64,000 bases of DNA from Daphnia carinata (lineage: Eukaryota): positions 62,001 through 126,000 of the forward strand of contig NC_081331.1 of NCBI RefSeq assembly GCF_022539665.2, given 5' to 3'. The notes under the pieces were generated by a model. That model did not search any database. It worked only from the letters and a program-made list of their open reading frames with translations, and was not told the DNA's origin. Both the position numbers and the translations under genes were made by a program. Positions 14,116 to 64,000 of the stretch are shown here, one piece after another (position 1 is the stretch's first letter; every line of letters begins with the position of its first letter).

Positions 14116-14123
14116 TATATAAA
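14116..14123 (+). promoter_or_regulatory. TATA box of huckebein
   Basis: TATATAAA lies ~135 nt upstream of the ATG at 14253. Confidence 0.6.
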
Positions 14124-14252
14124 GACGGTCATCTCATCCAGTCGGATCAACATTGGCTGTCAACTGGCCATCGAGTCCAGTCCTCAACTTCCTTCAGTGC
14201 TCCCCTTCTATTTCTCCAGTTTGTTCTTGAACATTTCGGACATTTTTCGAAG

Positions 14253-39485: not shown

Positions 39486-41314
39486 TTAAAAAATAGTTAG
39501 TTTAGAAGAGCTCTTTCTTTGTTTTTGCTCATTCACTATATGACGATCAGAGGCTCGAAGATGGTCCAAATCCTTTTCTTTGTCCACTAGCCTCAGTCGA
39601 ATTTGTGAAACAGATGCTAGGTCACCACGGTCGCTTTGCCGTTGCAAAGACTGTTTTAATTTGGCGATTTCACGTTCAGCCCTGCGGATTTCTTCTCCAA
39701 CTTGCAAACTCTGAACGTTTAATTTTTCACGAGTTAAGTGACCCAACTTTGTCGTCTTCGGCCACGATGATGAAGTGCCAGGTAGTGCTTCACATGTTTA
39801 GACAATTTCGGTCAGTATGACAGATGATCCATGAAACAATTTTTTTAAGCTAATTACGTACCTTCTTTGGAATGAGGGCCGTTATTTTTTGTTAACTTGG
39901 AATTGATAAAATCGAAAACAGACGCTTTTCGTTCGGACGCAATTGGCTATCTGACGGGACCGAATCTCGGCTTTCGCTTTCTGGCGTTCCAATCGCTTTT
40001 CTACAGAAAGCATATTCAAACTTCCGGCTGCTTCTCTCAGCTCCATGCAACGATCTTTAGAATACAATAATAAGATTTGGTATAACGAATAATTTTCGAG
40101 AATCTCTAAAAAGGAGAAAAAAAGGCCTTTACCAAGTGATCGGCCAGGAGGAAAAACCATGGCTTCGACTGGTTCGATTCGGCCTTCTCCTTCCTTTCCA
40201 AGCCCAGAACCATGGACATAGCCCATTTTCGCCATCAAACGAGATCCAATTCCACGCGTGTGTTGTTCCCACAATCCAAACGATTCGATACCCGCTCCTC
40301 CAATGTTATTCATTTCGAGGTATTTTGAAGTGAACTGCGAGTCATCGTCATCTTCGTCCGTACTGAACTCCGAAGATGAATCTTCTTCTTGCTCCTCTAA
40401 TGAAATCAAAACCATTTAATCATTTTGTTGTGGCAAGGGCGTAGTAATGTTATACCAAGTGGATAAACACAGTGCAGATTAAGCAAGAGAGCATCATTGC
40501 AATGAAGAAATTTAACTGAAAATTCTGTTCCTTTAATAACATCTTCAACCCTTCCCTTGTACCATAGGTCATCTTTATATTTTGCCAACACCATGCAACC
40601 CTCAACAATTTGGCTATAATCTGGATCACTGTTAAGCAAATAAAATAATAATTATTGGAATATCTTGTATTTGCAGTGAAAAGTCATACCTGAGATCTTG
40701 CACTTCATCAAGCCTAACAGCATAGCCATGGGAATAATGGCATTTATCATCTGAATATTTACAATTTCCTTCAAGATAATAAGGACATGGCTGCATTTTT
40801 TTGTTGGTGGGATGCATGAAAACAGCTTTTACATATACCAGACCATCTTCATTTAACTCTGAGCCAAGGATAATAGCATTATGATACCCAATTCCACCCC
40901 ATTCATATTTGAAGGGTACTTTACATTTTACTCCTTCTAATGCTGAAAGCTCATCCTGTTAGAAGAAATGTAAAAAAGCTCTTAACTTACAAATGTAATT
41001 GGTATCACTACTGAGGAAAACTGACTTCCAAGCTTGATTCATTTTGGCTATCAGAGGTATCACTCTCTTGAGCTGTTGTGGTTGAAAGGCTCGTTTCCGT
41101 CAGTAATATGATTTCTTCCAAATCCTTAACAACTTGTTCCAAATCCGCTTTTTGTTCTTCTGACGCGACCAGCAATGCATCGTGGATTTGCTTGAGCTGT
41201 ATTCTTAAATTAATTTTAAGATTACAATTGATACTGAATATAGAATTATATCGTCTGAACCTGAGTTTTGTATAGCTGAAGAGAATCTTGTAATGATTGT
41301 GGGTCCTCAGACAT
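39486..41314 (-). CDS. ZGPAT: Zinc finger CCCH-type with G-patch domain protein; contains an apparent +1 frameshift at ~39941
   Basis: [18 protein letters not shown] start, CCCH finger ([21 protein letters not shown]), Tudor-like segment ([14 protein letters not shown]), G-patch ([35 protein letters not shown]), VFDFINSKL and a C-terminal coiled coil ending KLTIF. Confidence 0.9.
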
Positions 41315-44300
41315 GCTGGAAACGCGACACCAAAACTTTTGCAAGAAAACGATACGAAAAATAAACTCAGCCCCGTTTTTGTTGCTTTGTGTACAAAATT
41401 ATCATTATGTTGTCTGCTAACGGCATTGCCAGTTTGCCAGTGGCTCTAAAATGACAGCCACTATGAGCGGCCCTCTATCGCCTCCATCTCTAACTCTCCA
41501 TATCAAACTTCTCCGAACGGCGGGAAAATTTTGGTGCCGCTGTTATGTTTGCAAATGTTTGTTTTCCACCCCCATCCCCTTTTTCTCGCATCTAAAAACA
41601 AAGGAACATTAAACCGCAAACAGAAATAATAGCGGCACAAACATATTCCCGCCAATTCGGGAGGTCTCATAATTGTGGGTGCATATAATACATACTGGCG
41701 CGCAAACGCTCATTGTAAATTTGCAAGGTGAGGAGAAGACACCACGTGAAATTTTTCTCTGGTTTCGTTGAATGTAGAAATATCTCTTAGGCTGCTTTTC
41801 GCTTTGAAAACTGTTTAGCTTCGATTGTAAGTCAGAAGTTTAAAAATTTAATTAGAATAAGCACTGAGTAAAGAGCTCAAACAAAACGTAGCATGTGGGA
41901 TGTTGCAAAAAATTCTGGATAAGAGTCACGTTAGAGGAAAACATGGAAATTTAAACTTCTTTTGGGCTTTGCAACTTGAACAGTTTTGCCTTTCTATTTT
42001 TATACATTTCCTACAATTTGTAAGTGGGATGTATAATTTGTACCATTGAGTAAGTTTTTTAGCTCTAACAAGCAGATTTGGTATTTAAATAAACTAAACA
42101 TTTAATCCCTGTTAAACCTGAATGTAGGTACACAATGTGTTTCATGCTGAAGTACCTTATGTTCTTGAACAGAAGCAGTAGGATAAAACAGGATAGTAAG
42201 ATTCAGCAGTATGAAGTGAGTCCTCGAATCTTGGAAGATTTGCAATTGGTGGATTCTGCGAAAGAAATCTGAAACAATGTAAGGAAAAAACATTTGGTTT
42301 TTGTGAAGTGAGTCTGCCTTAAATTTCCCTTGCATTAATGGGTAAAAGTGGATAGGATCTATTGGGTTTATCCAGTACTGCATGAACTGTCTTCTTGAAG
42401 ATCCACTTGGGCCACTACATTGTATTATGTATGCTCCAAAAAATGTTTTAGTGGTTGTTGAATGTTGAGGCATATCTAGATACTAACCAGTATTTTGCTT
42501 TTTCAAGGATGCATTGGTTGATGGTTCTTCTAGTTCGAAAAAGCTTCCTGAAACCAACCAGAAGACCCACACAGACACAAATGTGGAGAAAATGTCAAGG
42601 AAATCCAGCCGTGAATCTTATAATATCCTGTTATCCAAAAAATGTGTCAGGATCGTCGGTAATAATTCTGATACGATATCTTTCATAAATAACAGCACTG
42701 TTAGCTATAACTGAGCCTATATAAAATACCATGCGTGACAGGGACTTAAGTGGGCCTAAACGTGGCCTGATTTGTACGCGTTTGGAACGAGAAAAAACTT
42801 TAGCTGTCGCTGAGCTCTTAACAAAGCTGACATCCAAAGTCACACTGCTTTTTCTTTTAACGCCACCAAATCCCTGGTCGTGTCCTTTTGGCTGATGCAG
42901 CATTAGCATTGAGAAAGGTAGTATTATTTCGTATCACCGTCAACCGAATTAGTAATTCATTCTGGAATACGTCCTAGGAAGGTGTAGATTCAAGATTCCT
43001 TTCACGGACAGTAAAAATGACTTGTTAACAGAGTGGCATCATCAATGCTGATGACGTTCTCGCCGCATTTCTTTCAGCCTATTGGAACCGAAGTCTCGTC
43101 TGAATTCTATGTACTGATAAGGTAAATACCCTTCCGTAGCAAATTTTTAAAATCATCAGATCGCGTAGACGCTGCAGTGCATGTTCGAAAGCGATAATTG
43201 TTTTTTGAGAATTTGACAAGATATAATGTAAATTTGTTTAATTTAGGGAATACTGTGGGTGTTAACATGAAATCTCTGAATTTCCAATTCAGTTGACCGA
43301 CAAATCGTTCCCAAATGGTTTGACCGCCTTGTGCAAAGGAAAGACGAGAGGAAGACGGATAGCCTCCTTGACCTCCGTATTTGCCGTGGTCTTACGGCTG
43401 TCATCAAGTGGTATATATCGGACCCAAATATTCGAGGTATATATTATGCTTGTGTTTATATTTAGACATCCCATAAATAAGTTCAGAAAATAGCAAAGTC
43501 CTTCAAGTGGTTGTTGCCACATGTAGCCGTTCTAATTTCATCCTCCAATTTCCCATTTTGTATAGACAATTTAGACCACTGGACAACAAGCCTTGCAACA
43601 GTCGGTTGAACAACGTCTATTACGCCTACAAGTCGTCCGGCAAAATGGGACAATTTTGTCAAAATTACCAGCGCTGTTTTCAGTATGCGTTACTGCAATG
43701 TAGACCTCAAAACCAGCCGACGAGCAAAATTCAAAACATTAATATTTCGTCGCAGATGCAAGGTGACCTAGTTTCTTATTCCAACTCTTTACGTCATTTG
43801 GGCGATACTTTTTATTACTAAAAATATGTTGATGTCTTTCGTTATCCCGGGGGAAATTTTAAAACTTGAGTAATGGACCCGAGACTGTCACGTACGCGGG
43901 AACTTAGCGGGACAGGCTGTAAGCAGACCGTTCCGCTCTATGCCTTGTCTCATTACGTGAAAGAGAGAGAGCTTATAGACTGATCACGGCATCGTTGGGA
44001 AATGAAATGGCATCCAAGCGCAGATGTTCTTGTTGAACCGACGTCTATAGGATAACGATTTTTGGGTGTGTATAAGACATAAATCTCGGCGTGACATTGA
44101 TTCGTTTCTGAGTTTCTCGGCAGAGCGGAAGCGGATTAGTGAGTATGAGTGAATATTCCCTGCTGAATTTCCGCTTCCGGCGGGAGGAAGTGATGAAAAT
44201 GAGCGATGAAACTTTATTTTCCGACTGCCTGACATGTCGAAGGACTTTTTCTCGATCGATACGCTTGAAATGAATGTTGAAATTGAAATGCATGCTAAAA

Positions 44301-45305
44301 ACCATTTATTTTTCACAGATATAGAATCCGACCACTCACCTTAAAATGAGACGTTGAGTGGAGCTCTTCTGGCGAACCCATAATTTCATCTGTTCGGTGC
44401 ACCCATTCACATAAGGTACGAAGTCTTTGGTTCGTTACATGTTTTTGTTTCTAAGCGCATCCAAACGGCACAGAGAATTGTTAGTGTGTTTTGTTATGGC
44501 AACAACATCCAGCGCCAGGACGTAGTCTGTGTACATCATATTGTTGTTGCGCTTCTTGCGTTTCATGCTGAGCCCGAATAACGGCAGACACAACCCAACA
44601 CCATGGCAAACCGAAACAAGCAGCCATCACTTGCAATTGATTACAAACAGTCAAAGCTCAGTTCCGTCTTCGGCCTCTCTTTTTCCTTCTTCGTTCTTTC
44701 TTTTTCTTTCGACTCCACGTTTTTATATACCGGGGGTAAAATGGTTTATATTTTACAAATAAACAACGCCAGCGACGACTAGGTTATACAAACAAGGCCT
44801 GCGACAAACGAATAACGATTTTTTATGTAATTCTATTTCTTTTCAGTGGCTGGACGAATTGCAGCCCCATCATTCCTGGTTGGCTCCGACATTCTTCCGA
44901 TCGATTGACCCAATAATATGCAAAATCTTCAGCGATGGTGGATGATGGAAAAGGGAACGAGAATAACAACAAAGAGAAGGTATTTTTCTTTTTACGTCAG
45001 ATAGGAGTAAGGGCATTACGACAAATGCATTTCCAATTCAATAAATAACAGCATATATGGAAGAGAACAAATTGAGAGGAAGAAAAACAATGTGGTTTTG
45101 ATGGATTAGCTGTTCTCTTCGACTCGGTAAATTTAATATATGAAATCAACAAATTTAACAATCAATTATCTAAGAATTGGCTTCACTTCATTGTTTTTGA
45201 TAATTCAATTCACGTAATACGATGACAGTGCTGGACTTTTTCAGTGAACGTTCTTGGCAATCAGTGGACGTTAATTCTATATTTAACCTTCGACTGTTTG
45301 ACACT

Positions 45306-45511
45306 TCAAGTCAAATTCATCGTCGAACTATTTGACGCTGCCAGTAGAGCGATGATGCTTGGTGTTGCCGCCGTTGTCGTCGTCGAATTCAAAATTGTCC
45401 CCAGCTGGCCTGTCTGTTGCGGCGAGAAAACATTGTTGGATGCCGTCCCGTTTATCATGTCCCCGTTACTTGAAACGGAAGTGAATGTCTGCAATTCATT
45501 TTCTTTCCGCA
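45306..45511 (-). CDS. Shared 3' (constant) exon: 68-aa Ser/Thr-rich putative ectodomain VRKENELQTF...MNLT*
   Basis: Strong polypyrimidine acceptor ccttttctcttttttctag| at 45512 with phase-1 entry (G|TG=Val). Four N-glycosylation sequons (NGT, NST, NSS, NLT). Confidence 0.75.
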
Positions 45512-48338
45512 CTAGAAAAAAGAGAAAAGGAAGTTGATGAAATAGGATGAAATAGTCACCACGATTGTAAGTGCAACTATATCATTTGAAATGTATAGAG
45601 TAATCGACTCGTGATACTTTAGGACCGTCCATTTGGAATTTTGCCCGCTGGTTAAAAAAGGAAATGGTCAGCAGACTATAACCAGAAGTCGATGACCGAT
45701 GGATACACGCCATGACCCGCCTTATACTCGCGAGTTATAGTTTCACATGGCAACTGTGAGGCATGTGATAATCCCATACAGCACGTTTCTACCGTCTGTA
45801 TAAACACAGAAACCTAGAGACGAGAAGTTCAAAACTGGTGGCCATCGACGGTGGAGGAAAGACCGCCAACGTCAGAGACGGAAGGAAGTTGATGGACTGA
45901 TTTATACAGCATTGCTTTCACTCATATCTAGTGGCTGAACCGCAGGACACTCGGCTGCATGCCAAGTGGACAAAAGAATTGAGTCGACGAACAACAAAGA
46001 GATGGCCGGCAAAAAGCTAAAATATGCAATACGTTTCTACTTTGTCATTGATGAAAGTAGCGACATTGTTTGCCTCATATTTTAAGCGTACCGTCCAGAA
46101 CAAACGGGCGGCAGCATCCGCAAATGCATCGTCCCAATCTAAACGTTTGGGTGACGCACTGTCCCATCACACGCAGTCCAGCACCGTGTCGCTTGAGAAC
46201 AAACAGCTGCTCTATTCTGGGAACGGCCAACCATGTAGGTCACACTGGATAGCTGCTGGTCCAACTCGGTTGAGTACGTCCGGCCTGATCTACTGAATGC
46301 ATACGCAGTGAAATGGTCTGCATGGCACATGTCATTCGTCAGATACAATCGGAACATTTTGATTCAGTGTAGAATGAGCCAAACATGCAACGTGATGCAG
46401 TTTACACGTAACTGAAGTGGATGGAACAACCAGTGAATTGCTCGTTCATCATCTTTTGGCCATCGATCGCATGACACGAAATCGCAGAGGCAGCCACTTG
46501 GCCGTTGAAAGATATTTCGTATGGCACAAATACCGTCATTCTAAAAATGGCTTCGTCACACAGCATTCGTCAAACGCCAGTTGATCGGTGAATGGAGCGT
46601 GAGAAGTGATCAAATTTCGCTGTCGTTTTGCATTTCCTGCTTGCCAATGTGTGCCCATTTCCCCATTTATGGACGGTTGAATTTAGAATAGTCGTCTGCT
46701 ATACGGGCGGTGAAACCCAATCTGCTTAGCAACTCTGCGAACACTGCCGACGTCTTTCTTATATTTAGATCGTCGTCGCGTGTCGTCTGTTGTAGCAAAG
46801 TTTAAAACGGGAGCAAAAACACACGAATACCAACTATTTCATCTTGGTGTCATACTGCCATTTTGCCAAGAATGTTGGCCGTTTCACAGCGTGACTGCCG
46901 AATCGTCCGTACCACATTAAAGTCAATGAGCTAGTCGGTCGTGAAGTCACATGATCGAAGGAAGAAAAAAAAATGGCTGTCTGCCTCCTTTTCCAGCAAT
47001 CAATAAGAGAGGATGAAAAAGGACGGCAGATTGGGCATCATTTTTCTTTCTTGCGCGTCAATAATGGACAGACACTAGACGCGTTCATCGGCGAATTTTC
47101 CAATCACGACTTGATGTATTCGTATTGAATGTGAGGCCCGTGTAACCTCACGGCGTTTCTGCAATCACGACAAAAGATGGGCAGCTATTTGGTTTCCGTC
47201 AAGTACAATCAATGACTCAACGTCAAATATTTTGTTGGCGCAAAGTCCTCAAAACGAAGACTCGGGAGAAAAGTTGGTAGACGGCCAGACAAATAAATGA
47301 CGGTCACTGAGTGCATCGAACCATCCGAACGAGTTAAGCTGGCCGTATACTGGATTTCTCGCTAAATGATGGTGCACATCGTAAATACGCAACCGCTCGT
47401 TTTTGCACAAGTTGGATTCGTTTAACACAAGAAGTTGAAGGAATCAAACAAGTTTTTGATCAATGAGATTGGATCATGGAAGAAGCCAGAGATGGTATTA
47501 TGAAATTGAATTGATTCAAGACGATCAATAACTTCAAGTTCTCGAGGAACGTCTCCATTTTTTCTTCACTTTATGGAAATGAGCTGCTGAACGCATTAGA
47601 TAATGTCTTCCTCCTGTACACACGAGCCGGGCACATGAAGGATTGCTAATCATGTCAAGTGCGCCAAAAGAAAGCCAAAGGATTTAGCCTGTAAAAAAGC
47701 TGTGTACATCCGACATGTAAGTGGTAATGGCGGTTAGGAGACATGAAGTAATAGCAGCATTTTGTATAAATGATGTATATATATAGAACTCTAGGTTTTT
47801 ATTTTTAGTTTGCCTAAACGAAAGAGAGAAGAAAGTATTTTCGGTGAGCTATAGACGTGCGTTTGCGCTCTGCCGGCCAGCGAGTGGACGCTCAAGACTT
47901 TGTAGAAGAAATAAACAATTTATTGTTTCGTTTCTATACAAGAGCCTCTTTCGTCTTCTCCTCCTTGCAGTCTGGCGTTTTCGTTGAGAAGCGCATTTGT
48001 GTATAATTTAAAGGCTGCCCCCATGTTGTGAAGGACAGTGACGTCACGATGTCTTTTGGGGGTGCGAAATGGCAATTTCACTTTCGAAACATGCTAGTGG
48101 GTGGCTTTCTCTATTAGCAGTTTGTAGCTTTTACATTAACTTGGGTAGACGATAAAAAACGGCCCACTGTTTATACAAAAAAAAAAAAGTCCCTTTGAGG
48201 ACACGATCAATACCAAATGTTTTAATCTTGTGAAGTCAACTTAAGAACGCTATTTCGTAACAGGCAAGTTGGCGCAAGATTTGGTCTGGCGCTGCACCTG
48301 CTGCTGAACAGATAAGACTTAAGAAAAAGATGAATTAC

Positions 48339-49193
48339 CGGCTTCATCAATGGCCGACGCGTTGAAGAGAGTTATAAGGACAAAGAGGGCGCTGGCCGTC
48401 AACAAGATGAACGTCGTGCAGACGACGGCCATGACCACTTTCTTGCGACGGCGTTCTTTAGGCGTCAATACTTGCTCTTGCTGTTGATACTCTTCGCTGT
48501 GGCCGTCTTTCAGCGCCGCTGGACTGCCATCGGCATTGTTTCCGGCTGCCAATAAGCTGTTGCTCGGGTACGAATGTCTTCGGTGATAAGACGCCAACGC
48601 GGAAGAATGAGTGGCCGGATGACGGCCATTGTTGTTTCCGGCGGAGAAAAGAGGACCACTGGAGGATCGTTCCACACAACGGCCGGAGCGTCACTGAACG
48701 CCACCCGTTTCTTGCGCAAATCGCTTTCGTGACGGATGATGGACAGACGCAAACAAGGTTCCAAACAACTTGTGCTCGAACCCAATCGGATGGCTCCGCC
48801 GTCCACACATTGCTGCATGCCGGAGGACGAATGCTGTTTACAACGAGCGGCCAACTGACCGGCTGGACCTTCCGACTGTCGTCGACTGACGCGATTACGA
48901 TTCTTCATGCCTTTGCTACGCGTTCCGACATCGCTTCCGTGTCGTTTGATGCTGCGCGGTCCACTGGCCACGGCGGCCCCGTTTGTTTTCGATCGAAGCG
49001 GATGGCTCTTGTGATCAACGGTGCCACCGGGTGGAGAAGAAATGGCCACGTTGATGCTGGTGCCACTACCGTTCGTCCTCTGTTCGCCATCCGGCTCCAG
49101 GTAATGGACATTGTAACGGCCCCATTGGTTGCAATCGGAAACGAAGTCGCTCATCTCGTTGCTAGTCCCAGACTCTTGCTGTCCGTTTGTCAT
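48339..49193 (-). CDS. Variable exon C of single-pass membrane protein; frameshift near 48675
   Basis: MTNGQQ...KKRVAFSDAPAV then a frame change into ERSSSG...KERRRKKVVMAVVCTTFILLTASALFVLITLFNASAIDEA G|GTAATT (phase 1). Confidence 0.65.
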
Positions 49194-52100
49194 TTAGAGT
49201 TTTGCACTATCACTTCTCTTGTTTAGATTTTACTTCATGAAACTCATTTGATCACCACTACCATCTGAATATTGCCAGCTATGAAAGAGAATCAGCAGGT
49301 AAAAGCCCTAAAGTCAATCTCCTACGATGAGCGATCAAGTCATCCGTCACAACAGCTCTGCAATTCGACACGCGGAGTTGGAGTGAGTGCCAAGCGGACT
49401 GGCAAATGCGACCAGTGGGACGACAGGACGCGTAGAATCACGCAAGCTGCCACCATTAAGCGCGTCTGATGGTGAGCGTCGCTCGGATAGGCCAACAAAT
49501 CACGATCGTTACGTGGAACGAATAAGAAACTGACCCGGCTGCTCCAGTTCTGCATTAAAGTCAAGAGGCAACGAGCCAACGTGAACCACTTGACTGACTT
49601 GATAAGGAACCGATCCGTCGAGTTGGACGATCTCGGCAACGCATTGGCAGCGTCGGAGGGCGTCGCTTCAACGAAAACAACACCTGCGTCAGTCGCCTCT
49701 TGACCACGACTCTCCAATCTCACGGTCCACGAATCTTGTGGCGAATTTGCACTACCGCCGCTATCGGAAAAAGTTGTTATGACGTCTCGCTTGCAAACCA
49801 ATAAAGCAGTTCCGCGTGCGGATTGAACGGATGGTAACAACAAATGCCTTGGTCTATTGGCCCGTTGGTGGTGGACTTTGCTCGTTGGCGGAGTCAAGCG
49901 GATCAAATAGAGGCTGGACATCAATGCAAAAATAAACTTCCAATGTTTTAAAGAAAATCCAATTCACGAAACCAAGGGCGGAAAGAGACGAAGCGAGTCC
50001 CCACCAGGAGGCGAATCTGCGTGCGTACTCATGGAAAGCCGCCGCTCAACTGAAAAGCTCCTATATTCCCCCTCTTTCTTACATTCACCAGTGCCAGTCT
50101 GTAAAAGAAAAGAGAGGCGGGGGTCCCGAACGACGCGGATGGGATGGTATCGTGTGTGCTTCACAGTATAAAATAAAGGAGAGGGTCTTGTTAGCCTCCC
50201 CACTTTCTCTCTATCCGTATCCCATCTATTCTTTCTTCGTATCCATCTATTCGGATGGCTATACAGAGTTTCATTCTTTACCGCTAGTGGCTTGACTGAG
50301 CGTGCAGACAACAACATGGGGATTTTTTTTTGTTTTTTCGTCCTCCTCTTCTTTTGCTTCGTTGTCTTAGCGATGATGGGGCGGTTGCGGGAACACACGT
50401 ACGCAGCTTCTATTCTTATAATATCAGCTGGCCGTGCCGAGTGCCCCTTGCGATTCGTGATTTCAGACAAATAAAGACACAACAAAAAAGGAAGGAATGT
50501 TGTTGGTCTCCTTATTTCCTTGTATTTCCATTTCTTTGCCGCTTTTGTTTCATCGCTGATGCACCAGCTGCTAGCTCACGACGGGAAAAAACTGGAACGT
50601 GTGGAATGAAGAGCCGCTTAGACTTGCCACTATTTTCATTCCGGCACGCTGAATCCCAACGAGTCTTGCGAAACTATGTTGTCTATACGTCACTGCAGTG
50701 CCCTATTTTTATGCTCAAATCATCAAGGTGTGATGCTGTAATAACCGAAGGCTAACTTGTTTTATCCTCTAATATTGAAGCAGACCTGTTTTGCAAGTCG
50801 CAATGGTTCTGTTCTTTGTTCTACATATTTTGTTGCTAATGGTCGTCAAGTGTTGCTCTTATTGTAACTCAAACTTAATGGACTTTGCAACACATGAAAC
50901 AATGTAAATAGAAGTTGGAAAGGCCAAGGGACAAGCAGCTATCATCACTTTAGCCTTTGGGGTCGATCATTTGTCACGAGCAGCAGCTGAAGATGGCCTC
51001 CTCTTTTGAAAGGTAATTTCAAAGGGCGAGAGACGTGAGAGATGAACGAAAGCTTTCGCCATTGGTTGCCGCTGTCAACTGAAAATGGCTGCTGCCACCT
51101 TCGAATTCAGCGTCTCCAATCAAATCGATCGCTCCCACTAGTAAAGGGAAAAAGATTTCGCTCGATTTCTTTTGTCTGTTCCCCAGTGAATTCGCAATCC
51201 CTTTCGGTTTGACTCACGAAAATGGCACACCCGTTCGATACCCGCCGACAAGGCCTCCCGACAGCAATCGTTTATTAGATCACGTCGGCAAGAGTCACGA
51301 GCGAGGCTGACTTGTTACTGTCACGTATAGATGTGTGCTCTTTAACTATGGGATAATGTCGGCCAATAGCGAGTTACCTCGATTGCATTAGGTTTAAACG
51401 CTGCACCTCTCGCTTCGAGTTTTGTCACGAGTGTGTAATTTAAATTTAGATGGACCCCACGTGATGCGGGCCTAGTTTGCCATCCTTCCAAATGAACGCG
51501 ATGTTGAACACGTCGCCAACAAACAACAACACATTCGTTCCCCTTTTATTTAAGGTCACCAACAACAGCCAACAAAGTCATTGAAATTTAGCAACGTTCG
51601 AATACATTGGACGTAGGTTTGCATGGCCATCAGCGGTATATCTAACGTATACTATCACGTTGAATAACGCTATTCATGTTTTCTTTGAACATTTCAATGC
51701 GAGTTATACAGCGCAAAAACGGGAATGCGAGAAAAAGCTGACGTCGTTGCTATGGTTACCAGGAACCCTCATAAATTGTATGCGCTAGCGTATCTCTCTG
51801 ACGTTCGTATCGACCTCTTTCGCAGTTTCTTTTCTCCTCTTTTACGGCGGGATCAGAGAAGATAGTCTTCGTTCCTCTCGAGTTTTGTCTTTGTGACGGT
51901 CGTGATGTTGTGCCGCAGTCCCGGTGAACTTCTACTTGCCCCATAGACTGGTATTCGTTTTGTTTTTGCTCTCTTTGTCCTAGCCTCGTCTCTGATAGAC
52001 GTGTATATATACATAAACGAGAGTAGATGGCTGGAGATGTACGTTGAGGCGTTCGGCAACGTGAATCCACTCCAGCGTGCATTGTTCCTTTATCGACGTC

Positions 52101-54069
52101 ATCGAAAAATCCTTTCGTCAATACCTCCTCGTTCTTTTCGATCCTTTGTCGATGAAATGACGAACAAAGAACTGACGTAGACTCCTGGCCTCGACATCGA
52201 AATTGTAAATCAATTATTATTTGATTGAATGAAGGCAACTGGCGTTGACCGCGACTCGGCCCACCTGCTGCATTTCTTAATCGATATCGGGCAATTAGAA
52301 CATTGGGGCGTGTATACGTTCAAGGTTGTGCGGGCAGTGCCACTAGCGTGAAACAGGCCAATAACGAAAGGTCAATGCGTTTTTATCATTTTTGAAAAAT
52401 GTCTACTCAAAATATTGGATGAATGAAACAAAATGGCCGGTGATGGTCGCCGAACTTTGACCATCACCTCTGGCATCGTGACAAATTCTGCATGGAATTA
52501 TTAGGATGCCAGACGATTAGCAAGTCAAAACAGTGCCACTCTAGCGTGCCTTTCACGCACGGCCGTCACGTGTACCTCGAAATCAACTCTTGAGACTGTG
52601 ACAAAAAATCAGACTTGTCATCGCCCTCTATTTACTGAGAAAATCAAAAACGATTGGTCTAGCGACGTGAACATGTTTTGGCTTGTAGAGAAAGCTCTGT
52701 AATGAAAATGAACGTTCCGCTTGGTTTCCCAAAAGTGATTAGCCAAAGTTGAGTTGACATGAAAAGTGGTTCAAGTCATGGCAACCGCTGCACGAGTCTA
52801 CTTTCGTCCCACTTCCTATATAGCGCCAACTAACTTACAAATAACGTTGGTAAAGAACTCATAGATGTCGGGAAAAAGTTTGTTGAACCGTTCATTACTG
52901 CACTCATTTATTTCGAAAGGGGAAATCTAATGAAACGAGTTTCTGGAAGAAAAAGGACGCCCTTCCCTCGGACTTGCAGGTGCCTATGGTGGTTACGTAA
53001 TCGAAGGAAAAAGGGAGTAGGTAATGAGTACACAGAGGATGGGAGTTGTACAAGGAAACAATGGAAGGGGACATCATTTGTACCACGAATTGGCGTTTCC
53101 ACCCAATGCCTCGGGTTGCATTCAAAAACAAATGCCGTTCATAAACAGGAACTTGTAAAAGTGTGTGCCAACAACGGCAGACCAGATTGATTAGTCCTAC
53201 AGTGTACACGGTCCAGTGCAAAACGGGTATGATTTCTACCTTCGCAGGGAGACGGCATGCCAATAATGACGTCGTTTAATGTTAGTTTTGTGCTCAATTA
53301 GATTCGTGTTGTTCAATAGTGGCGAGGTCGTTTAACGGAGGCCGTCATTCATCAGCCAGTTGAGTGCAACTTGAACTATATAGGAAACGTTATTATTAGA
53401 GACGCTGCCATTTAATGAACTCCCCTAGGTGTTTCCAGACGTCGACCCTGAATTTTGTGTATCGATCGTCACGTCTAGAGACACGCCCTTCAATCAAGGT
53501 AACGTTTCTATTTCTTGTGAAAACTTGAATGTCAAGCAAACACGGATGCATTTGTTTGACATTGTATTCCCCTGCAAGTAGAATCTCTATAGCATTCGAT
53601 TATCTTTTCTATCATCGAATTTTGAACGCGTTTGTGCACTGGACTGGAATTTGACTTGGTTATTCTACATGAACAAGAAATCGCATTGGTCTAACGTTCC
53701 ATATTTACATTCGATTTGAAAGCAATCATTCAAGATGTGATTCAATTTCGAGATGGAATTCTATTTAACGGTTAAAAAAGCGTTCAATAGACAAATGCTA
53801 GGCAACTGTAGTCAACCGTCACTCGACAGTTGCCACGACAAGAGGAATTTCAATTTCAAACGTTTTTCAGTTTAGAGAAGGTTCATCCACGAAGGTTTTA
53901 ACCAGGAGACGTTCATCAAACAGCCTAGCCTCATTTCCATGGCAATGGAACGGTCCAAGACATTCCCTAATCGATTACATGTAATCTGTACAAGTTTGAA
54001 TGTGTCAGAATGTGATGGCGACAGGTAAATTCGTGCGAGTTGAATGTGATGGTTTATTACATTTCTTAC

Positions 54070-55282
54070 CGAGGTCGTCAATGAGTGGAGCTAATCGCAA
54101 CGTAATGCCGACCATGAAGAGACAGGTGAAAAGGAGGAAGACGGACGTGAGGATGACGATGCCGCGGGCACGCCGACGTGGATTATTGCTTTCATCCGAA
54201 GACGAGAATGAAGTTTTATTGGCCACCCCAACTGTTACAACAGCCACGGCGGCAATGGCCGATGCGGCCGCTTTGACTGGTGCAGTTTTCGACCCATCGG
54301 CCGTTGCACGCGATCGACGGACTTTCTTTTTCTTCTTGTTGGCTGTGTTTATTGGTTGGTTGCTGACCACGTTAGTTTTAACGGCCTGTCGCAGTCCAGC
54401 ATCGGCCAGCATTGGCTCGGGTGACAAGACGACGAGCTCCGCATTGGGACTTTTGCGGGCCACCACCAAACGCGTGCCGATTGTGGCTAGAGGTGGCAGC
54501 ACGACGCAATCCTCGTCCAGCCCGTTGGCACCTTCTGCTGGCCGTTTGGTGTATCGCACTTGCTCGTCCAGCAGTTCCCCATCTTTCCGTTGCTGCGTTT
54601 CGTCTTCGTCTTCATCAACTTTATCGTAATGTCTGTCCAGTCGGCCCTGATGGCTGCCAACTGGCGATGGTCTCGGAGTAACCGATTGACGATGCATGGA
54701 ACAAGAGGACGAGGACAGATCGAGAAAGGACGGTGTCATGTCATCGCTTTTTGCCACCGAGTCGTGGCGAGTGCGGACTCCACCCGAACCGCCCAGGAGA
54801 TGAGTGGCGGCCAATACCTGCGGCACGTCATGATGACTGGCGTCGCACGAACGCCAACTGCGTTGCTCTCGGGTATCGGCTAACAGCCGCCGACGATTGT
54901 ACGGTCCGCTATTGGGCCCGGCGGATGACGTCCCGGCCACGGATTCTGAATGCGTCGTGGACTGGCGGAGTAAGCGAGGACGTGTTGATCCGGCCGTTGT
55001 TTGTCGATGCTTTTGATATTGGTAGTCGTATTGATTGTCTGAGAAGCGTTTGACGATCGACGTTGGGTTGGCTGATTTGCGTTTGCTCACTGCCGTGCCG
55101 GAAAACTGGTGAAGCGTCTCGTCCGACTGATAATATTGATTCAATTTGTGGTAGGAGAGTTGGCGGATGAGTTCGGCACCCGATGCTCTTGTGGCTATGC
55201 ATGTGGCGGATGCTCCGCTTGCCCCGTAGCTCAACCTCGGCTCGCCCACCAGTTCCTTCTTCCGCTCTGTTTCATTCGTCAT
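54070..55282 (-). CDS. Variable exon B of single-pass membrane protein
   Basis: 404 codons from MTNETERK to RRRARGIVILTSVFLLFTCLFMVGITLRLAPLIDDL G|GTAAGA (phase 1). Confidence 0.8.
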
Positions 55283-58200
55283 TTCCGATGATGGCACACG
55301 AAATTCATTGATTTTTAGATATCGTCCATCTTGTATTAAATTTTTTTTTTTTTTTTTTTTTTATGCCTTTAATATTTATTTTGTTTGAATGTTTTACGAT
55401 TGACCAAGGTCTATTGGCGTGTTCAACTGATTGGGAGCAGGAGGTGATGGTCGTTGGCACGTAGCAGAAGACTTTATTCTACCGGGCTGATCCAATCAAC
55501 AGCCGCGGCCATTGATTTCTCGGCCCCGCGCTTGCGTCGTCCGTCTCAGTTCAGAAACTCTTCGTCCCAGACGATTCTTATCGGCACCACGACGCATAGG
55601 GTAACAATCATTTCGACATTTATAAACATTGCTTCATCAATGTACTCATTTCTTGTCCACTTTCGAGAAGGTCCTTGTCACCTTTTATCCAATGCCGGGC
55701 ACGATGGACTTTTTGCCCGTTAAGCGAATGCAACTGTTGCTGCGTTGGTCCAGTGAGCACAAGCAAATCGAATAGACGCTGATCAGTTGCAACGAGACGA
55801 GGAAAGAACAAGGTGTGAGCCCCGACACCAGGTGTAAGGTATGTCAATAAATCGACCGTGTAGACGCTGCTGGATTATTGGATGGTGGACTTGCAGCGAT
55901 ACGCATCACTTAACCCTGCCCGTGTGTCTTGTGATGCATGAAAAAATAGGAAGAAACGTTGATGCACACGAAAAAAAAACAAGTGAAAAAGTCGGAGATG
56001 GTGCGCTGATTGAGCACGTTCTTACGCTATGCGGATAAACGGAGAGATGAGGCAAATGAAGTCGGCCATCAGTTGAGAAAGGAGACGAAACGACACGACC
56101 ACCTTCTACGAGTCTGGTACCACGACTGAATTCGGTAGAGCTCACCTGGCCAACCACCACACACTATCATCACTCTGCTCTCTGCTCTCTTTTATCCTTT
56201 TCTTTGAATCCTACCCTTTCCCCTTGCCATCTTCTTCCCTTTTCTGCCTCCCCTCTAGCGCCTTGACAGTGTGCGTGACGCAGCAGCCTCACAGACATCG
56301 ACGTCTTGGGCGAAACTATACTTTTACACAGACACTGTCTATATGTGTGTCCGCTGCCTATATGTTCCGCTTCGATGTGTGAAATGTAAGTGCTGCTGGG
56401 AACAGGGACTGATGCTCGGCCGAGTGCCCAGTCTTTGTATCTCGTATGGGAATTTGTACAGAGAGTGACACATACAGGGCACATGTGTGGAACAATGGCC
56501 GCATCCATTACGTCTCTCACGCATTTGACAGTTAATGCTGCAGATTTTTCACTTGCTTACGCGAGTCGCAAATCTGTTTGTGCAGAATGTCTTGTTTGCT
56601 CAGCTGCGATGCGATTGTTACGCGCGGAGGACGACTTGCGCCCGCTTGTTTGAAGACCAAAAGCCAACGGAACGTCAGCGCTGATCAAATGAAGATAGGT
56701 ACGCTCATTATTTTTAGAAGCGCATTAAACCAACATTTTTAAAATTTAACTCTGGCAAACGACTCGAGCGCGTAGCCACCGAAGACTGCGACATCAAAAG
56801 GATGGAACCAGAGTCGAATCTGTTCCTCTCTGCATATCTTATTGGCAGTGAAAGCGAGCTGTGTGCAGTGGCACTGAAACTCGAACCTGGACCCTTTATC
56901 AGGCCGTCTAATAATGTTAAGGTAATTCTATATAGACTTTGATGTCTCGTTGACCATTACATCTAATAAGATGGCGCAGACGAGTAAAGGCGTTTCAACT
57001 ATTTGCCTATTTTTTATCATTTTCAAATGCCACAGTTCTAATTCTTTTATCTTTGCTTGCTTTGATGCGTACGTGTGCCATGTCAACGAAATTGAAATTC
57101 AATCGATTGTGGATGTGTCGTTGTCGCTTCAGGTTCTACTTTCCCTGTAATTGCATCAAGGCTGCAGCGTCTGATGGGGGACGATCTATTGTGGAAGAGC
57201 ATGTGAGGAGTGGGTCGTTCACATCGACTTGGGAAAGAGAGAGATGATGGTGAAAGCTTCGAGAAAGACAGAAGAGATGACGCTGAGGATTCGTGTTGCG
57301 TAGTCGGGGCTGGTGCCAAAGGGGTAAGTGACATATAAATCTAGTACTCGTCAAATTTGCTTGGCACATAAACTTCCTTTGTCTTTTGAAGACATCCAAA
57401 TAGGGACATTTATGTAGTATCATAACATTATTCAGCTGTGCAGTTCTCGTTATGTAAATGGGTCTGGCGTACACAATTTGAATTATGGTCCTTTCAACGC
57501 TTAATTATGCATAAAAAGAACAGAATTCTTTGATCTTAGTCCAACTCTGAGTCGGGGTGTTGAATCGCTTCATAAGTTCCTTTTTCATAGGGTTTCAGAA
57601 ATCGATCCTGTTTTTTTTTTTTTAATGATCCTTGGGAAATCGATATCGAAGAATCGTTAAAGCCTCGTAATTAATGTGTTGCATAAATCGTCTTTATCAT
57701 CGAGTCGATTGGCTCTGTTTCAGTCATTTATCATTCAGATCCAAACAGCAGACGGTAGATTACAAGTGTAACGTTTCTAAAGATTATTGATGAAGAAGAC
57801 GTGGTAGATAAGTGAACTAAAAATCCATCGTTCATTTTTTTTTGCCATCCTTTTTTAAAACATCGTGGTGCACGTTCAGTTTGTGTCGAAAAATGGGAAA
57901 GTAAACTAAATCCTTTGGCTGCGCGATCCAGTGCAGATTTAGGGCATTTTCAAAGTATACAGCCCTCTCTAAAAATACATTTGAACGGAAAGAAAGTTTT
58001 TTTTTTTTATGGCGTCTCAATCGGAATGGACGTTTTTCCTCGTGTAAGAAATTGGCGCTATACGAGGCAGGTTGCTGTACGCTTTGGCAAGTTTAAACAC
58101 TTAAAGACGTCCGCTTTAAGCGAATTTTTCTTCCTGTTTTCTCGTCTCTCCATTAGGGATATCGTATTGACGTGGTGATACGATCTGTAGCTGCGAAATA

Positions 58201-60280
58201 TATCATGTTTGCTCGTGCTTCCTCTCCTCGTGATGCTTTGACAGCTGGCGATTATGCGAAACCATTGGCGCATGCAGCATTGCATTTTTTGTTTTCCTTT
58301 TCGACATCAAAGGGGGGTGATGATAAAACGTTTGATAGAGAATGCAGCTATGTCAAGTTATCGTTGGTTGTAGCACGCATACAAAAAAGTTGGGGGACGG
58401 CTGTCTTTCTTGCCTATAGAGACGTGTGCATGTTTGGCCGTCGTTTCCATATCGCATAAACCCATCCTTTTTTTTTAAAAGCCATTCTTCCGTCTTTTTT
58501 TAAGCGATGTTGATTCACGCTATAGCTGGAACTAGCTCGAAATGTGATATTTCGTGTTAATGCTGGCCGTCAATCAAAGGCTAGAACAACGTCGGAATAT
58601 TTGCTCAGTTCAGCGCAACGCCATTCGAGTTGTCCATCCAACCGAAATAGAAACGAGTAAACTTTGAAAGAACAAGCACCAATAACAAAAAAAAAAAAAA
58701 AAAAAAGGACGATCAATAGAGTTTCGCTCTTCGTGACCCGAATATGCCCACAACTGATGTAACTCCCCGTTCGCGCTTTTAGACTGTTTGAAATCGGTGG
58801 GGCAATATCTTGTATATAATGCTGCACAACGATGACTGGCGTATTGATTATCCGTGTTTGCCCTCGATATTCTCCATTTTTCTTCCTATCCGCTTCTCCT
58901 TCCACCGTCTTCGCCGTCCGCTCTAATACTCTTTGGCTCTCTATGGTCGGAAAATGATGGCGGCTGAATGACGCGAATAAAGAATTTTTGTTCGCGCGGT
59001 ATACCGAGTTTGGTGAAGCCGATCGAAATCACCTGTCAGGCCTCGTCTCTCTCTCGTTCGCTCATCGCTCATCCGATTTATGGCGCTTCGTTTGGCGTTG
59101 CCAAGTCGCTCCGCATTGATATCGCCATCCATTTGGCGTTCGTTCCTTTTTTTCTATAGGAAAACTATCAATAGCCTACTTCGACCGATGGCTCTTTACC
59201 TTGGCTTTTTATATTACATTGTGTTATCGCCCACTTTCAGCGCGGCTGCAATTCAACTCGTCGGCGAGACAGCTCAACCTGATTCATCAGGTCCTTGTCA
59301 AATATTTGCTTGTTTTTGTCTGCTGTTTGCAATCGAAATGGCGTGTATCAGTTAAGTCGCTTCACGAGGAAAGGCTGCCTTCTATTCCCGTACTCCTCCC
59401 CTCTCCCAAACTTCATTTTTGTTTTTCAGGAAATATTTCTCGCTTGGCCGGTGCGTGTACGTACATGGGGCCCCGTGTTTAAACATCCGCATCAGAGCGG
59501 GCGGACGGCCACACGCGGCAGCAGAAAGGGAGGAGCGAAAGAGACGGATGGACATGAAAGAATAGAAGAAAAACAAGAAGAAAGAAGAAAAGAGCGCTTT
59601 CTTGTTAGTTGAATTAAAGGCGAACGAAAGGCGGATGCCAAAAAGGCAACAGCAAAGAAATAGAAGAACGGGGGGGGGGGGGGGTAAGAATAAAGTGAGC
59701 ATATATAGACACACTCTTGCTGTGAAGTGTCTTGTATTTGCTACTCGGTAAATTCTCATCTGCTGCAATCCCCAACGTAGACACAACGGATTACTCGGTC
59801 AGTTGAAGAGGCGCGGCTAAAGGGCCGACTATATAAGGAATGAAGCCCGCACGGGCAATTGCTGGTCGATTGGATTCGTTGAAGAAGATCCTGTTCAGTG
59901 TCTGATGCCAACCAAGAAAAAAGACTAACGCGTGAAGGAGGGGAGAGAAAAGAAAAGCGATCGACCGATATAGAGGCCATAATATTAGACTTGCTATCGG
60001 CACACAAAACACTTGACGCCAAAGTGGACCGACTTGGCTCCGGCGCCCTAACATCTTGCCAACAACAAAGTGGGTGAGCATTTTTTTTTTTTTTCATTTT
60101 AAATCGTAAATGATGGACGAGATGTTTCAGATGATGGCTTGACCGCCTCACATTATCATAAGACAAGTGTGTGGCTATTAACATTATGAACGACTGACCG
60201 CACTTGGAAACTTGAAATTTTCAGGTTGATGCCATCAGTGCGTGTGTGACGGTGATTGAAATGACTTTAAATCGCCTTAC

Positions 60281-61664
60281 CGAGATCATCGATGTGTGTG
60301 GCAAGTCGAAGAGTTACAGTCACCATCAGAATGGAGAGGACGAGGAGAAAGGCGCCGACGGTGGCGATGATGGAAATGGTTCGGCGACGTCGTCGACCTT
60401 CCGGCGAGTTGTCGTCTTCATCCTCCGGTTCAGGCACCAGTTGCCCGCCTCCTTCTTTGCCCGTCGGTGACAATAGGAAAATGGCTGAAGCTTTGGACGA
60501 CGACGCCCGACGACGCTGTTCGCGATGGAAGCTGACGGCGTCCGATCCCAATGGCAGCAGAACATCGGCATCGACCGCCGCGTTGCCCATTCGATGGCTG
60601 GACGACCTTCGTGAAGTCGACACCATCGATTCATTCACTTTCAAATAGGCCGAATCGGTCAGCGACGAATTGCGACGCGACGACGAGTTGCTGATGGCCC
60701 CCATTCCGCCCGTCGTCATGGCCTGGCTGACTACGTCGACCGAGCCCCTGCTGGAACGCGGCCGTTGTGGATGTTGGTGGATGCCGTCCGTTTCGTGTTG
60801 TTGGCTGACTACCGATCCTCTCGGAGTTCCATTGATTCGTTTGCTATTGCGTCTACCGGATGTTGAAACTGTTCCTGGAATAGAATTCTTCTTATTGGCT
60901 AATGGCTGCTGTTTGTGCTGATAACGAGCCACAGCTTGGCCGGCCAGCGATTCAGCCTGGGCCGACGCTCTGCGACGATAATGTTGCTGCGATTCGGGTT
61001 TCTTGTGCTGTTTGGTCGCTTTGACGGGCAGGACGGCGGCAACCGGATGAGCGTCGTGTTCCATCATCTTGCGTTCAGAGGCGACCAACTGGGCCGAGAT
61101 GTTGGTGTAAGCGATTCGCAGATCCTCGTGACTGTAGCGTCTAGTGGCTGTCGGATGATTAGCGGCCGACGGCTGGATGTCAACGACGTCGACCATCAAA
61201 GGAGAGGACGATTGTTCACGGTTTCCTGGCTGCATTCGTCCGGCTGGTGTGACACTGCGCTTCCGTTGATCCCATATCCGTTGGGCTTCTCTCAAAAGTT
61301 CAATGGCAGCCACGGCTTCCGGCTCGCCGGACAAATAGGCGACCAAGATCTCGGGCGGTGGCTGTTGTTGCTCGTCCAGCGACAAAACTTGAACTGTTGA
61401 ACGCTGGCCATCGTCGGCCGACTGCTGACCATGATTGCACTCGACAAAAATGAGCGACGGTTGTTGGCCACCGACGTCCTCGTCGTCAGCCATTGCAAGT
61501 TGTCGCATGTCTTCGATCAATCCAACCGACTGCTCTTGTTTTTCTTCCTTCACCTCGTTATGGCCGGCCGACGACAACAACGCCTCTTTATCGAGACGCT
61601 TGACGTCATCATCCGTCATTTCGTTCGCCCTCCTTTGCGCATCCTTTACTACCAAATCTTCCAT
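60281..61664 (-). CDS. Variable exon A of single-pass membrane protein
   Basis: 461 codons from MEDLVVKD to RRRRRTISIIATVGAFLLVLSILMVTVTLRLATHIDDL G|GTAAGG (phase 1). Confidence 0.8.
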
Positions 61665-64000
61665 CCTTGACTACGTAATCAGGGTTTATCCCGTTCTTTT
61701 TTGATGAAACAAATCCTTCTTCTTGATCCCAGTCAATCAATCAATCGCCACACCATCGGAATAACAACGAAATGGAACACTGGAGGAAAACAATTCGACA
61801 TGCATAATATCTTTCCGGCGGGGGAATGTCGAAGGAAGAAAATCCAATCAAATCATTTGATCAACAGCGATGCCGCAATATCCCTTCCCTCCCTCTGAAT
61901 TGTTCTTCACTAAATGAAGTGACACGGAACACGAGCAGCCGATGATAAAGAAAAGAAAACCCAATAAAGAACAAGACCTGAGCAAGACAAGGGTCAAAAC
62001 GTCTAATAATGCGGGCCGAGACTGCGATGTGATGATGTTGTTTCGTCTGCACACGATCCTCCTTGACACGATGCCCGGTCGGGAGCAGCGGTCGGGAATT
62101 CAAACTGAAGACCACCGTCTCAGAGGAGCGACTGCCATAGTCGGTTGTTGGACCCAAATATAGTAGACGACGACGCCCGATGGGGAGGGGAATACGGAAA
62201 ACGGAGAAAAAGAGCGAAGAAGAGAAAGAAGAAGATTAAACGAAGAGGAAGAAGAAGAAGGGAGAAAAAAAAAAAAAACGTTTTCTGGCAGCCAGTCAGT
62301 GCCAATTGTAGTGGACTGCGTATACATCGGCAGCCACTACTACGTACACCGCACACGACGAGGCACACACACACACAGGCGCACTTATTTGGAGTAAGAG
62401 CTAGGCGCAGTCCATCACACCCACATGGCCTGATATCTCTTTATGCATTCACATATAGACAGCGGACGAGAACTCAGACACGGCATTTTCTTTCAGTTTC
62501 TATTGATGGAGAATCGACTCGAGTTTATCTTGCACGCTGAAAAGGGGCGACGATGATGGACCGAAAAGATTCCAAAATAGGCAGACGGTCAGCCAAAAAG
62601 ATTTATACGAACCGACAGTGACGGATCGCTTCGTACTGAAGCATCGCTCATGTCTATAGGCTTTATAGGCTGCGTATAGTAGAAAAGAAAACGAGGTAAA
62701 GTCAATATCACTTCTACATAGCCCCCAGCTTTTTTCTTTCTCTTGTCTGTTTTCATTCCAAGGCAAGAGAAACGGAATAGAGACGATGTACGGAAAACCC
62801 CGATAGTGTTTGGCTCTCTTTACGACTAAATGCATTTGCTATCTGTCCGATAGCAAATGCAAGTTTGCAATTCAAAGACCTTTGCACAGATCCAATCTTG
62901 CTAGGCATTAAGCAAGGGCGGAGTAAGTTTTTCGTAACAAACGCGCGCATGAGCTTAGCGTACCGAATAGCTCGGCAGGATGCGTGACATGCAGCAGTTC
63001 TGCGGTGAATATAAATTGCCTTGTGTGCGTGAATCATTTTTTGCGTTATGCTGCGACGTTGCTTTATATGCGGCAATTCGTTTGGGCGGACGTCGCTTCG
63101 TGCATGTTTGTAATCAAGTGTCGATGATATGTCCTTAACATTAAAATGGAAAGACACGTGATGTATTGCCTTCGCCTAGGAGGCACGCGACGTTGCCTCA
63201 GTCGACATGTATTGCACGCAAACGAAAAATGTATACACACAAGTGCAGCGCGAATATCTACGTGTTCTAACAAACGTCGGCACTGCCATCATTTGATATT
63301 CGTGTTCCTTCCGCTTCTGCCCTGTGCCGCTGAATAATGCAATACATCCCTATATCTATATACTTCCGCTTCATGTGGCACGTCGCCTATCGTTGCTTCA
63401 CGTGGCTCTTTGTTCTCGTATATAGCGCAGCTACAACAAAAATATGGTTTGGCATAAAGATTTTTATTGTGCGATAGAAGAGTTGTTGTTTGACGATCCT
63501 CCCATACACTCGCTGATGTTTGGCTTTCCGATCTGTCTACGTTCAAAAACCAGCCGCCGCATTTTGGACGAAGCCGTTTGATTGTGCTATTTCAGTTTGC
63601 GTCTGACACGACAACATCACATCAAGACGCCTCGTCATATCATCACCCGACGCCGAGTGACGCGCATTCACGACTGATACCGATCTGACAAATGTACAAC
63701 ATCATGTAAAACCCCAATTATTCGCAGTGCAAAGTCTATGTGTTGGCCGTGTCATTTGTCCAACAAATCATTTGCTTTATTGCGATATTGACGACAGGTT
63801 CAAAACGTGACCTAGAAAGCTCAGTGGCCGTTCGGTGCAAACGCTTTCAACAAGAGCTCGTCAACGTGAAATGTGATGGTTGTGCAGTGCGAAAAAAATG
63901 CGATTTATCCATCGAGCCTTGTGTTGGTTCGTGAAGGTCGCTGTTGTAACGCATTGTGGCATAAAACGGACAATCTTCGAGGTCTTTTACAAATCTTGTG

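What the first reader, a model, noticed from the sequence alone, without database searches (positions are those of the whole stretch)
45306..61664. Variable-exon / constant-exon cassette encoding a family of type II membrane proteins with swappable cytoplasmic tails
Seen in sequence: three large minus-strand exons (61664-60281, 55282-54070, 49193-48339) about 6 kb apart, each with its own ATG. Each has a long low-complexity N-terminal region that I cannot align to the others. Each then has a homologous end: an Arg cluster, a ~22-aa hydrophobic helix, and TLRLATHIDDL / TLRLAPLIDDL / TLFNASAIDEA. Each stops at the same position in a phase-1 donor (G|GTAAGG, G|GTAAGA, G|GTAATT). I found one matching downstream phase-1 acceptor exon (45511-45306), which extends all three in frame to ...IDDL/IDEA-VRKENE... 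plus a glycosylation-rich tail. Predicted products are ~529, ~472 and ~352 aa. Established knowledge: clustered protocadherins and UGT1A use tandem variable first exons spliced to constant exons. Inference: this locus uses the same logic but inverted, with a variable intracellular domain plus TM and a constant small ectodomain (topology from the positive-inside rule). I do not recognise the family. More variable exons may lie beyond 64000.
Basis: partly seen in the sequence, partly recalled or inferred. Interest (0 to 1): 0.92.

Follow-up and report, generated by a model that had tools for sequence, protein, structure and literature searches.

The report
Swappable-tail membrane protein gene cassette
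This water-flea gene has three large alternative exons, each encoding a different long tail plus a membrane anchor, that join one short shared last exon; it belongs to an unnamed family that likely keeps this layout in other arthropods, and one version is predicted to bring a phosphatase to the membrane.

Summary
The layout is real, with one correction. Exons A and B joined to the shared exon give exactly two RefSeq isoforms of Daphnia carinata LOC130692067. Open C homologues joined to the shared exon exist in relatives.

The family has no Pfam name, and my paper searches found no mention of it. A profile finds 259 relatives. Of 123 new ones, 68 read into an intron at the same junction and 53 are joined there. 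In 13 of 18 non-Daphnia joined rows outside the main clade, the closest tail belongs to a protein with a different membrane helix. The shared-exon layout therefore recurs in other, unnamed lineages, and a fourth exon type exists.

Glycosylation sequons in 52 of 53 tails support type II topology. C carries a PP1-docking-like motif in 54 of 55 tails. Separate promoters, PP1 binding and a partner for the conserved helix are untested. Variable first exons are a known design, and GCNT2 already has a membrane segment in them. What differs here is that 82-87% of the protein is variable.

The parts
60281..61664 (-). Variable coding exon A: 461 codons, long low-complexity tail, Arg cluster, membrane helix (about 60312-60380), phase-1 donor
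   Evidence: with the shared exon it is identical to P0021 (XP_057371124.1, isoform X1). The tail holds 8 [RK][RK]x[ST] sites against 1.2 in shuffles.
54070..55282 (-). Variable coding exon B: 404 codons, membrane helix about 54101-54169, phase-1 donor; the type with most relatives
   Evidence: with the shared exon it is identical to P0001 (XP_057371126.1, isoform X2). B clade holds 38 of 60 joined rows.
48339..49193 (-). Variable coding exon C, frameshifted near 48645-48651 in this sequence; membrane helix about 48370-48438, phase-1 donor
   Evidence: Open homologues joined to the shared exon: P0145, P0173, P0177 (Logan contigs) and P0183 (D. pulex RefSeq).
48672..48716 (-). RVxF plus two-hydrophobic-residue motif (KRVAF-x5-VV) in the C tail; predicted PP1 docking site
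   Evidence: 54 of 55 distinct C tails, shuffle rate 9e-5. RVxF in 0 of 81 A and 0 of 62 B rows.
45306..45511 (-). Shared last coding exon: 68 residues, starts with the conserved VRKENE motif, four N-glycosylation sequons, stop codon
   Evidence: (only such acceptor in the window).
56096..56130 (-). Candidate core promoter for B (Inr with DPE at +28), 845 nt before the ATG; weak
   Evidence: 3 such pairs on this strand, 1.5 expected in shuffles. A strong donor-like site lies 20 nt upstream.
62077..62190 (-). Weakly conserved non-coding stretch upstream of A, holding an Inr-like site at 62106; weak
   Evidence: matches upstream read-through in P0034 and P0100 (49% identity, E 0.002 in a small database, among many chance-level hits).

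Best explanation
One gene splices any of three tandem large coding exons to one shared last exon, giving predicted type II single-pass membrane proteins that likely act as membrane-anchored adaptors, with a common outer helix that would engage a common partner and a different inner signalling tail on each, the C tail being predicted to dock protein phosphatase 1.

Shown in the sequence: the exons, their phase-1 junctions, in-frame stops before each ATG (so each exon carries its own start), and the frameshift in C.

Shown in public records: A, B and C forms joined to one tail in Daphnia, and different helix types sharing a tail in other lineages.

Inferred: (1) each exon has its own promoter and the cap-proximal exon splices to the shared exon, as in protocadherins and GCNT2 (about 0.65); (2) N-terminus inside, glycosylated tail outside (about 0.9); (3) the conserved unit is one helix running from the membrane across the exon junction, which binds a common membrane partner or a second copy (about 0.4); (4) C recruits PP1 and A is a substrate of basophilic kinases such as PKA (about 0.65 and 0.5); (5) the break in C is an assembly error or a private null allele, not loss of the isoform in the genus.
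For:: exact match of A+shared and B+shared to RefSeq X1 and X2.

of 201 close homologues with the helix-end motif (of 204 stored), 12 are joined to the shared tail (A 6, B 2, C 4), 186 continue with Gly as expected from reading into a G|GT donor, and 3 continue otherwise. Nine of the 12 are NCBI gene models; 3 are Logan contigs.

contig L002 shows the A junction with no intron, while P0045 has the matching upstream sequence reading into the intron. P0205 (C type) has the same tail as L002 (100%).

259 relatives; of 123 new, 68 Gly read-through, 53 joined, 2 other; 52 of 53 tails carry a sequon.

the helix tree splits B from non-B (100/99), while tails group across that split. 17 of 22 non-B rows (13 of 18 outside Daphnia) have their best different-helix tail partner far above shuffles.

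one predicted helix, residues 6-51, across the junction (mean pLDDT 80, 9 sequences).

and PMC10743859 (passages): KKVAF is a PP1-binding motif in yeast eIF2-gamma, and GADD34 has its two hydrophobic residues 6 and 7 places after the Phe, as here.
Against: Exon C is not open in this sequence, and the C search returned no D. carinata record.

Four GenBank models give private 3' ends: P0026, P0048, P0073 and P0172. The end used by P0026 has a weak match at 59877-59812.

One gene model, P0271, holds two helix types in series.

Most B-clade joined rows showed no different-helix partner among the 150 hits listed. Many B-type read-through hits begin just before the helix, after what looks like an intron, so in that group the variable part seems split over several exons and may be single.

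The PP1-like motif is absent from 15 of 16 non-B rows of other lineages, and the 16th has only a weak match.

The 55 C tails are related, not independent. B has a second hydrophobic stretch (mean hydropathy 2.0 at residue 336) that could complicate its topology. Promoter signals are at chance level. 5 of 22 non-B rows have no clear tail partner.
Confidence: 0.6

Rival explanations
1. The three exons are mutually exclusive internal exons spliced from one shared non-coding first exon upstream, possibly beyond 64000. Isoform choice would then be made by splicing, not by promoter. The proteins would be the same.
For: Acceptor-like sites lie upstream of each ATG (62536, 55426, 50098) and no start site was measured. 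Promoter motifs are weak.
Against: Each exon has its own ATG with an upstream in-frame stop. Exons of 0.85-1.4 kb spaced 5-6 kb apart resemble first exons (inference). An Inr+DPE pair precedes B and a weakly conserved element precedes A.
Confidence: 0.2
2. These are in effect three old paralogues made by partial tandem duplication. They share the last exon and 3' UTR only because the duplications stopped at the intron, and the proteins work separately with different partners.
For: 82-87% of each protein is private. Each helix type is nearly invariant within its type but only 31-50% identical between types, which suits separate partners. Beyond about 10 residues the tail is poorly conserved between lineages (median identity 0.25-0.31).
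Against: The residues around the junction are kept in all types and lineages (L395 and D402 invariant; I401, V405, R406, N409 and E410 at 90% or more in 52 rows). None of the lineages with several types shows a duplicated private tail in these data.
Confidence: 0.3
3. Three independent genes with private 3' exons; the joins to 45511 are annotation artefacts.
For: Some GenBank annotations of D. magna and D. pulex model them as separate genes with other ends.
Against: Joined forms occur in assembled contigs, not only in models (P0145, P0173, P0177, L002). The private ends differ between annotations. Only one matching acceptor exon lies in the window.
Confidence: 0.03

Closest known systems
Vertebrate GCNT2 (IGnT) variable-first-exon cluster (PMC1885805, passages)
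   Same: Three tandem variable exons, each with a transmembrane segment, separately spliced to constant exons.
   Different: GCNT2 variable exons are highly similar, have the helix near the N-terminus, have shown promoters and encode an enzyme. Here the helix ends the exon, the tails are 260-430 aa and unalignable, and the constant part is a 68-aa tail with no domain. No sequence relation was found (Pfam scans).
Clustered protocadherins and UGT1A (PMC1885805 and PMC4835542, passages)
   Same: Large tandem variable exons joined to common 3' exons.
   Different: In UGT1 the variable exon carries a signal peptide and a luminal domain and the anchor is constant. In protocadherins the variable part is extracellular and the constant part cytoplasmic (recalled). 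Here the predicted orientation is the reverse, there are only 3 exons in the window, and no folded recognition domain is present.
Chelicerate sDscam 5' cassettes (PMC4835542, passages) and Drosophila Gr39a isoform-specific tandem exons (PMC10411586, passages)
   Same: Arthropod loci with tandem isoform-specific 5' units and shared 3' exons.
   Different: sDscam varies extracellular Ig domains in 2-4-exon cassettes, with 40 or more copies in one gene. Gr39a varies a chemoreceptor and its exons turn over fast. Here the exon types look old and stable.
PP1 targeting subunits with RVxF and phi-phi motifs, such as GADD34 (PMC10743859, passages)
   Same: The C tail has the motif with the same spacing, in a low-complexity region tied to a membrane.
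   Different: No homology beyond the motif; binding untested; motif limited to the C type of Daphnia-like records.
RefSeq uncharacterized genes LOC130692067 (D. carinata), LOC116916474 (D. magna), LOC124196089 (D. pulex), LOC124328872 (D. pulicaria)
   Same: The same locus. A and B are already modelled as isoforms in the first two; C+tail appears in the third and A+tail in the fourth.
   Different: No record seen holds all three under one gene, and none gives a name or function.

Membership tests
Multiple-variable-first-exon clusters (Pcdh, UGT1, GCNT2 type) | Tandem homologous variable exons in one orientation with the same splice phase | tested here: met
   Homology is limited to the last 36 or so codons.
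Multiple-variable-first-exon clusters (Pcdh, UGT1, GCNT2 type) | Each variable exon is separately spliced to common constant exon(s) | tested here: met
   Gene models for A and B in this species; joined C and A contigs in relatives. No junction reads from this species were seen.
Multiple-variable-first-exon clusters (Pcdh, UGT1, GCNT2 type) | Each variable exon has its own promoter | tested here: inconclusive
   Motif scans at chance level; acceptor-like sites upstream of each ATG.
Multiple-variable-first-exon clusters (Pcdh, UGT1, GCNT2 type) | Variable exons highly similar along their length | tested here: not met
   N-terminal profiles score under 8 bits across types.
Protocadherin, Dscam, UGT or GCNT2 protein families | Cadherin, Ig or glycosyltransferase domains | tested here: not met
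   No Pfam family reaches its cut-off in the exon products or in 28 relatives. Best PDB match E 0.055.
Type II single-pass membrane protein | No signal peptide, one helix, basic residues on the N side, glycosylated C side | tested here: met
   N-terminal hydropathy at most 0.5, one main helix (2.6-2.7), Arg cluster before it; sequons in 52 of 53 tails. Simple scales only; B has a second weaker hydrophobic stretch.
PP1 regulatory subunits | RVxF motif, with phi-phi motif, conserved in a cytoplasmic region | tested here: met
   54 of 55 distinct C tails; the miss is a 44-aa fragment.
PP1 regulatory subunits | Motif-dependent binding to PP1 | not testable with these tools

The most novel reading that the evidence does not exclude
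An unnamed membrane-adaptor family has kept a variable-exon/shared-exon locus since early arthropod evolution. Promoter choice swaps whole cytoplasmic signalling tails, one of them PP1-recruiting, onto a shared junction-spanning helix through which the isoforms co-assemble or bind one partner: a protocadherin-like locus turned inside out, diversifying output rather than recognition.
Probability: 0.3. Interest if true: 0.82.

Novelty: new variant of a known kind. Interest (0 to 1): 0.62.

Why it matters
It defines an undescribed, widespread animal membrane-protein family by a 45-residue signature and shows that its diversity comes from a shared-exon locus that annotation pipelines split or truncate in different ways. 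If the unnamed lineages prove to be chelicerates, decapods and insects (my inference, not shown), the layout is very old. It gives direct tests: 5' ends per isoform, PP1 docking by C, and the partner of a helix encoded across an exon junction. The design class itself is known, and two of the three isoforms are already in RefSeq.

Tried and rejected
RNA runs: no RNA holder was listed for 45300-55290, so no reads were laid; this is no evidence either way. No genome is held for the window, so sequence beyond 64000 was not examined.

Pfam gave only sub-threshold matches (ETRAMP, FAM70, INV_N, EVI2A and others), rejected as generic helix matches. PDB sequences gave nothing under E 0.055. The Atlas gave unnamed eukaryote clusters at 0.75-0.80 (Mollusca, Rotifera, Arthropoda), which is lead level only. 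I ran no fold search, since a single helix is uninformative.

A small intron in exon C was rejected: no canonical site pair was found and homologues align through the region. Five long ORFs between the exons have no Pfam match.

Paper searches for six further locus tags, for LOC116916474 and for four motif peptides found 0 papers. Topic searches (listings only, except the four papers read in passages) showed nothing on this locus. Supplements are not covered by these searches and were not read, so expression tables may list the genes. Earlier scan findings: none returned.

Full report
Observation. The window is animal DNA whose exons match Daphnia carinata RefSeq proteins exactly. On the minus strand, exons A (61664-60281) and B (55282-54070) are open from their ATG to phase-1 donors. 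The exon at 45511-45306 has a clean acceptor and 68 codons. Joined, they equal XP_057371124.1 (529 aa, isoform X1) and XP_057371126.1 (472 aa, isoform X2) of LOC130692067. A profile built from distant relatives finds exactly three helix exons and one matching acceptor exon in the 64 kb.

Correction. Exon C (49193-48339) is 855 nt and its ATG frame stops at codon 228; the helix is in another frame. Homologues switch frame at 48651-48645 and are themselves open. Whether this is an assembly error or a null allele is open, since no reads were available.

Splicing in relatives. Of 204 stored close homologues, 201 carry the helix-end motif and none carries two. Of these, 186 continue with Gly, as expected when a gene caller reads into G|GT; 12 continue into the shared tail (A 6, B 2, C 4); and 3 are GenBank models with other ends. 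A fourth model, P0026, also has a private end. Nine of the 12 joined rows are gene models, which I take from general knowledge to be partly RNA-guided. Three C rows are Logan contigs whose run type is not shown; transcripts are the likely source. Contig L002 shows an intron-free A junction directly, and its partner P0045 reads into the intron. Equal contig lengths suggest that A, B and C are linked elsewhere too: 83,207 bases for P0096, P0131 and P0192, and 14,892 for P0032, P0063 and P0153. This evidence is indirect.

A wider family. A 53-position profile found 259 proteins at E 0.001 or better, 70 at 1e-10, among 1.84 billion representatives; only the best 150 were listed, 123 of them new. 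These have no names. Of the 123, 68 show the Gly read-through, 53 are joined at the same position and 2 are other. No Pfam family reaches its cut-off in 28 of them that I scanned. A tree of the 42 residues before the junction (60 joined rows, few columns) separates a B clade of 38 from 22 others at 100/99. The tails do not follow that split. L002 (A) and P0205 (C) share an identical tail, and P0268, a fourth type, shares 91% of it. P0235 and P0294 share 96%, P0213 and P0239 93%, P0260 and P0301 80%, and P0210 and P0228 78%, each pair at 31-36% helix identity. For 17 of 22 non-B rows, 13 of 18 outside Daphnia, the best tail among different-helix rows scores far above shuffles; 5 are unclear. 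The simplest reading is a shared last exon in several lineages. That they are chelicerates, decapods and insects is my inference from recall, not a tool result. Against generality: most B-clade rows showed no partner type in the listed hits, and many B-type read-through hits start just before the helix, as if an intron lay there. One gene model has two helix types in series (P0271), which fits tandem exons mis-joined but could be a real serial join.

Protein anatomy. The variable exon gives 82-87% of each protein. There is no signal peptide, one main helix follows an Arg cluster, and the tail has 3-4 sequons. 52 of 53 new joined tails carry a sequon, which supports an outside C-terminus. B has a second, weaker hydrophobic stretch. 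The conserved core runs across the junction and is predicted as one helix. The three tails do not align with each other, but each has conserved islands. C has RVxF followed by two hydrophobic residues at +6 and +7 in 54 of 55 distinct tails, against 9e-5 in shuffles; RVxF is in 0 of 81 A and 0 of 62 B rows. A review gives KKVAF as a PP1-binding motif and the same spacing in GADD34 (PMC10743859, passages). The motif is missing from non-B rows of other lineages apart from one weak match. A has 8 basophilic kinase-type sites against 1.2 expected; B and C are not enriched.

Mechanism. Most likely each exon is transcribed from its own promoter and spliced to the shared exon. The result is a set of membrane adaptors with one outer helix and different inner tails, C bringing PP1. 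Promoters are not shown: an Inr+DPE pair at 56127 is at chance level, a conserved stretch at 62190-62077 is weak, and acceptor-like sites precede each ATG. The main rival is that the isoforms act as separate paralogues that merely share an end.

Comparison. Variable first exons joined to constant exons are known in protocadherins, UGT1 and GCNT2, and GCNT2 variable exons hold a transmembrane segment (PMC1885805, passages; its supplementary alignment was not read). Arthropod cases include sDscam (PMC4835542, passages) and Gr39a (PMC10411586, passages). This locus works like them but fails the test of exons similar along their length, and it shares no domain with them. Searches for its locus tags and motif peptides found no paper; supplements and most subscription papers are not covered.

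Verdict. A real, partly annotated, undescribed locus and a new variant of a known design. The layout has about 0.9 support; the full mechanism about 0.6. Interest 0.62.

Noticed in passing
window 48645-48651: Frameshift in exon C relative to open homologues; assembly error or null allele. It may explain why no C isoform of this species was found.
   Followed up: partly
P0268: A fourth variable-exon type with a tail 91% identical to that of L002 and P0205; no such exon lies in the window.
   Followed up: partly
window 59812-59877 (-): Stretch matching the private 3' end of D. magna model P0026 (70% over 23 residues); a possible alternative last exon for A or conserved intron DNA.
   Followed up: partly
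window about 54220-54277 (-): Second hydrophobic Ala/Val stretch in exon B, partly kept in B homologues, shortly before the main helix; possible re-entrant segment.
   Followed up: no
L003 6431-6545: B-like helix with a phase-1 G|GTAAGT donor in a 34% GC contig of another organism; no second helix exon in its 9.2 kb.
   Followed up: partly
P0242, P0247, P0231: Long B-type relatives share an N-terminal DKxVxT-like motif and a short conserved helix; it recalls a dynein light chain binding motif (recalled, untested).
   Followed up: no
window 27580-34866 (+): BET-family gene with two bromodomain matches and a weak BET match.
   Followed up: no
window 39882-41445 (-): G-patch gene downstream of the shared exon.
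   Followed up: no
window 2-835 (+) and 13980-14990 (+): Ankyrin-repeat ORF running off the window start, and a C2H2 zinc-finger exon.
   Followed up: no
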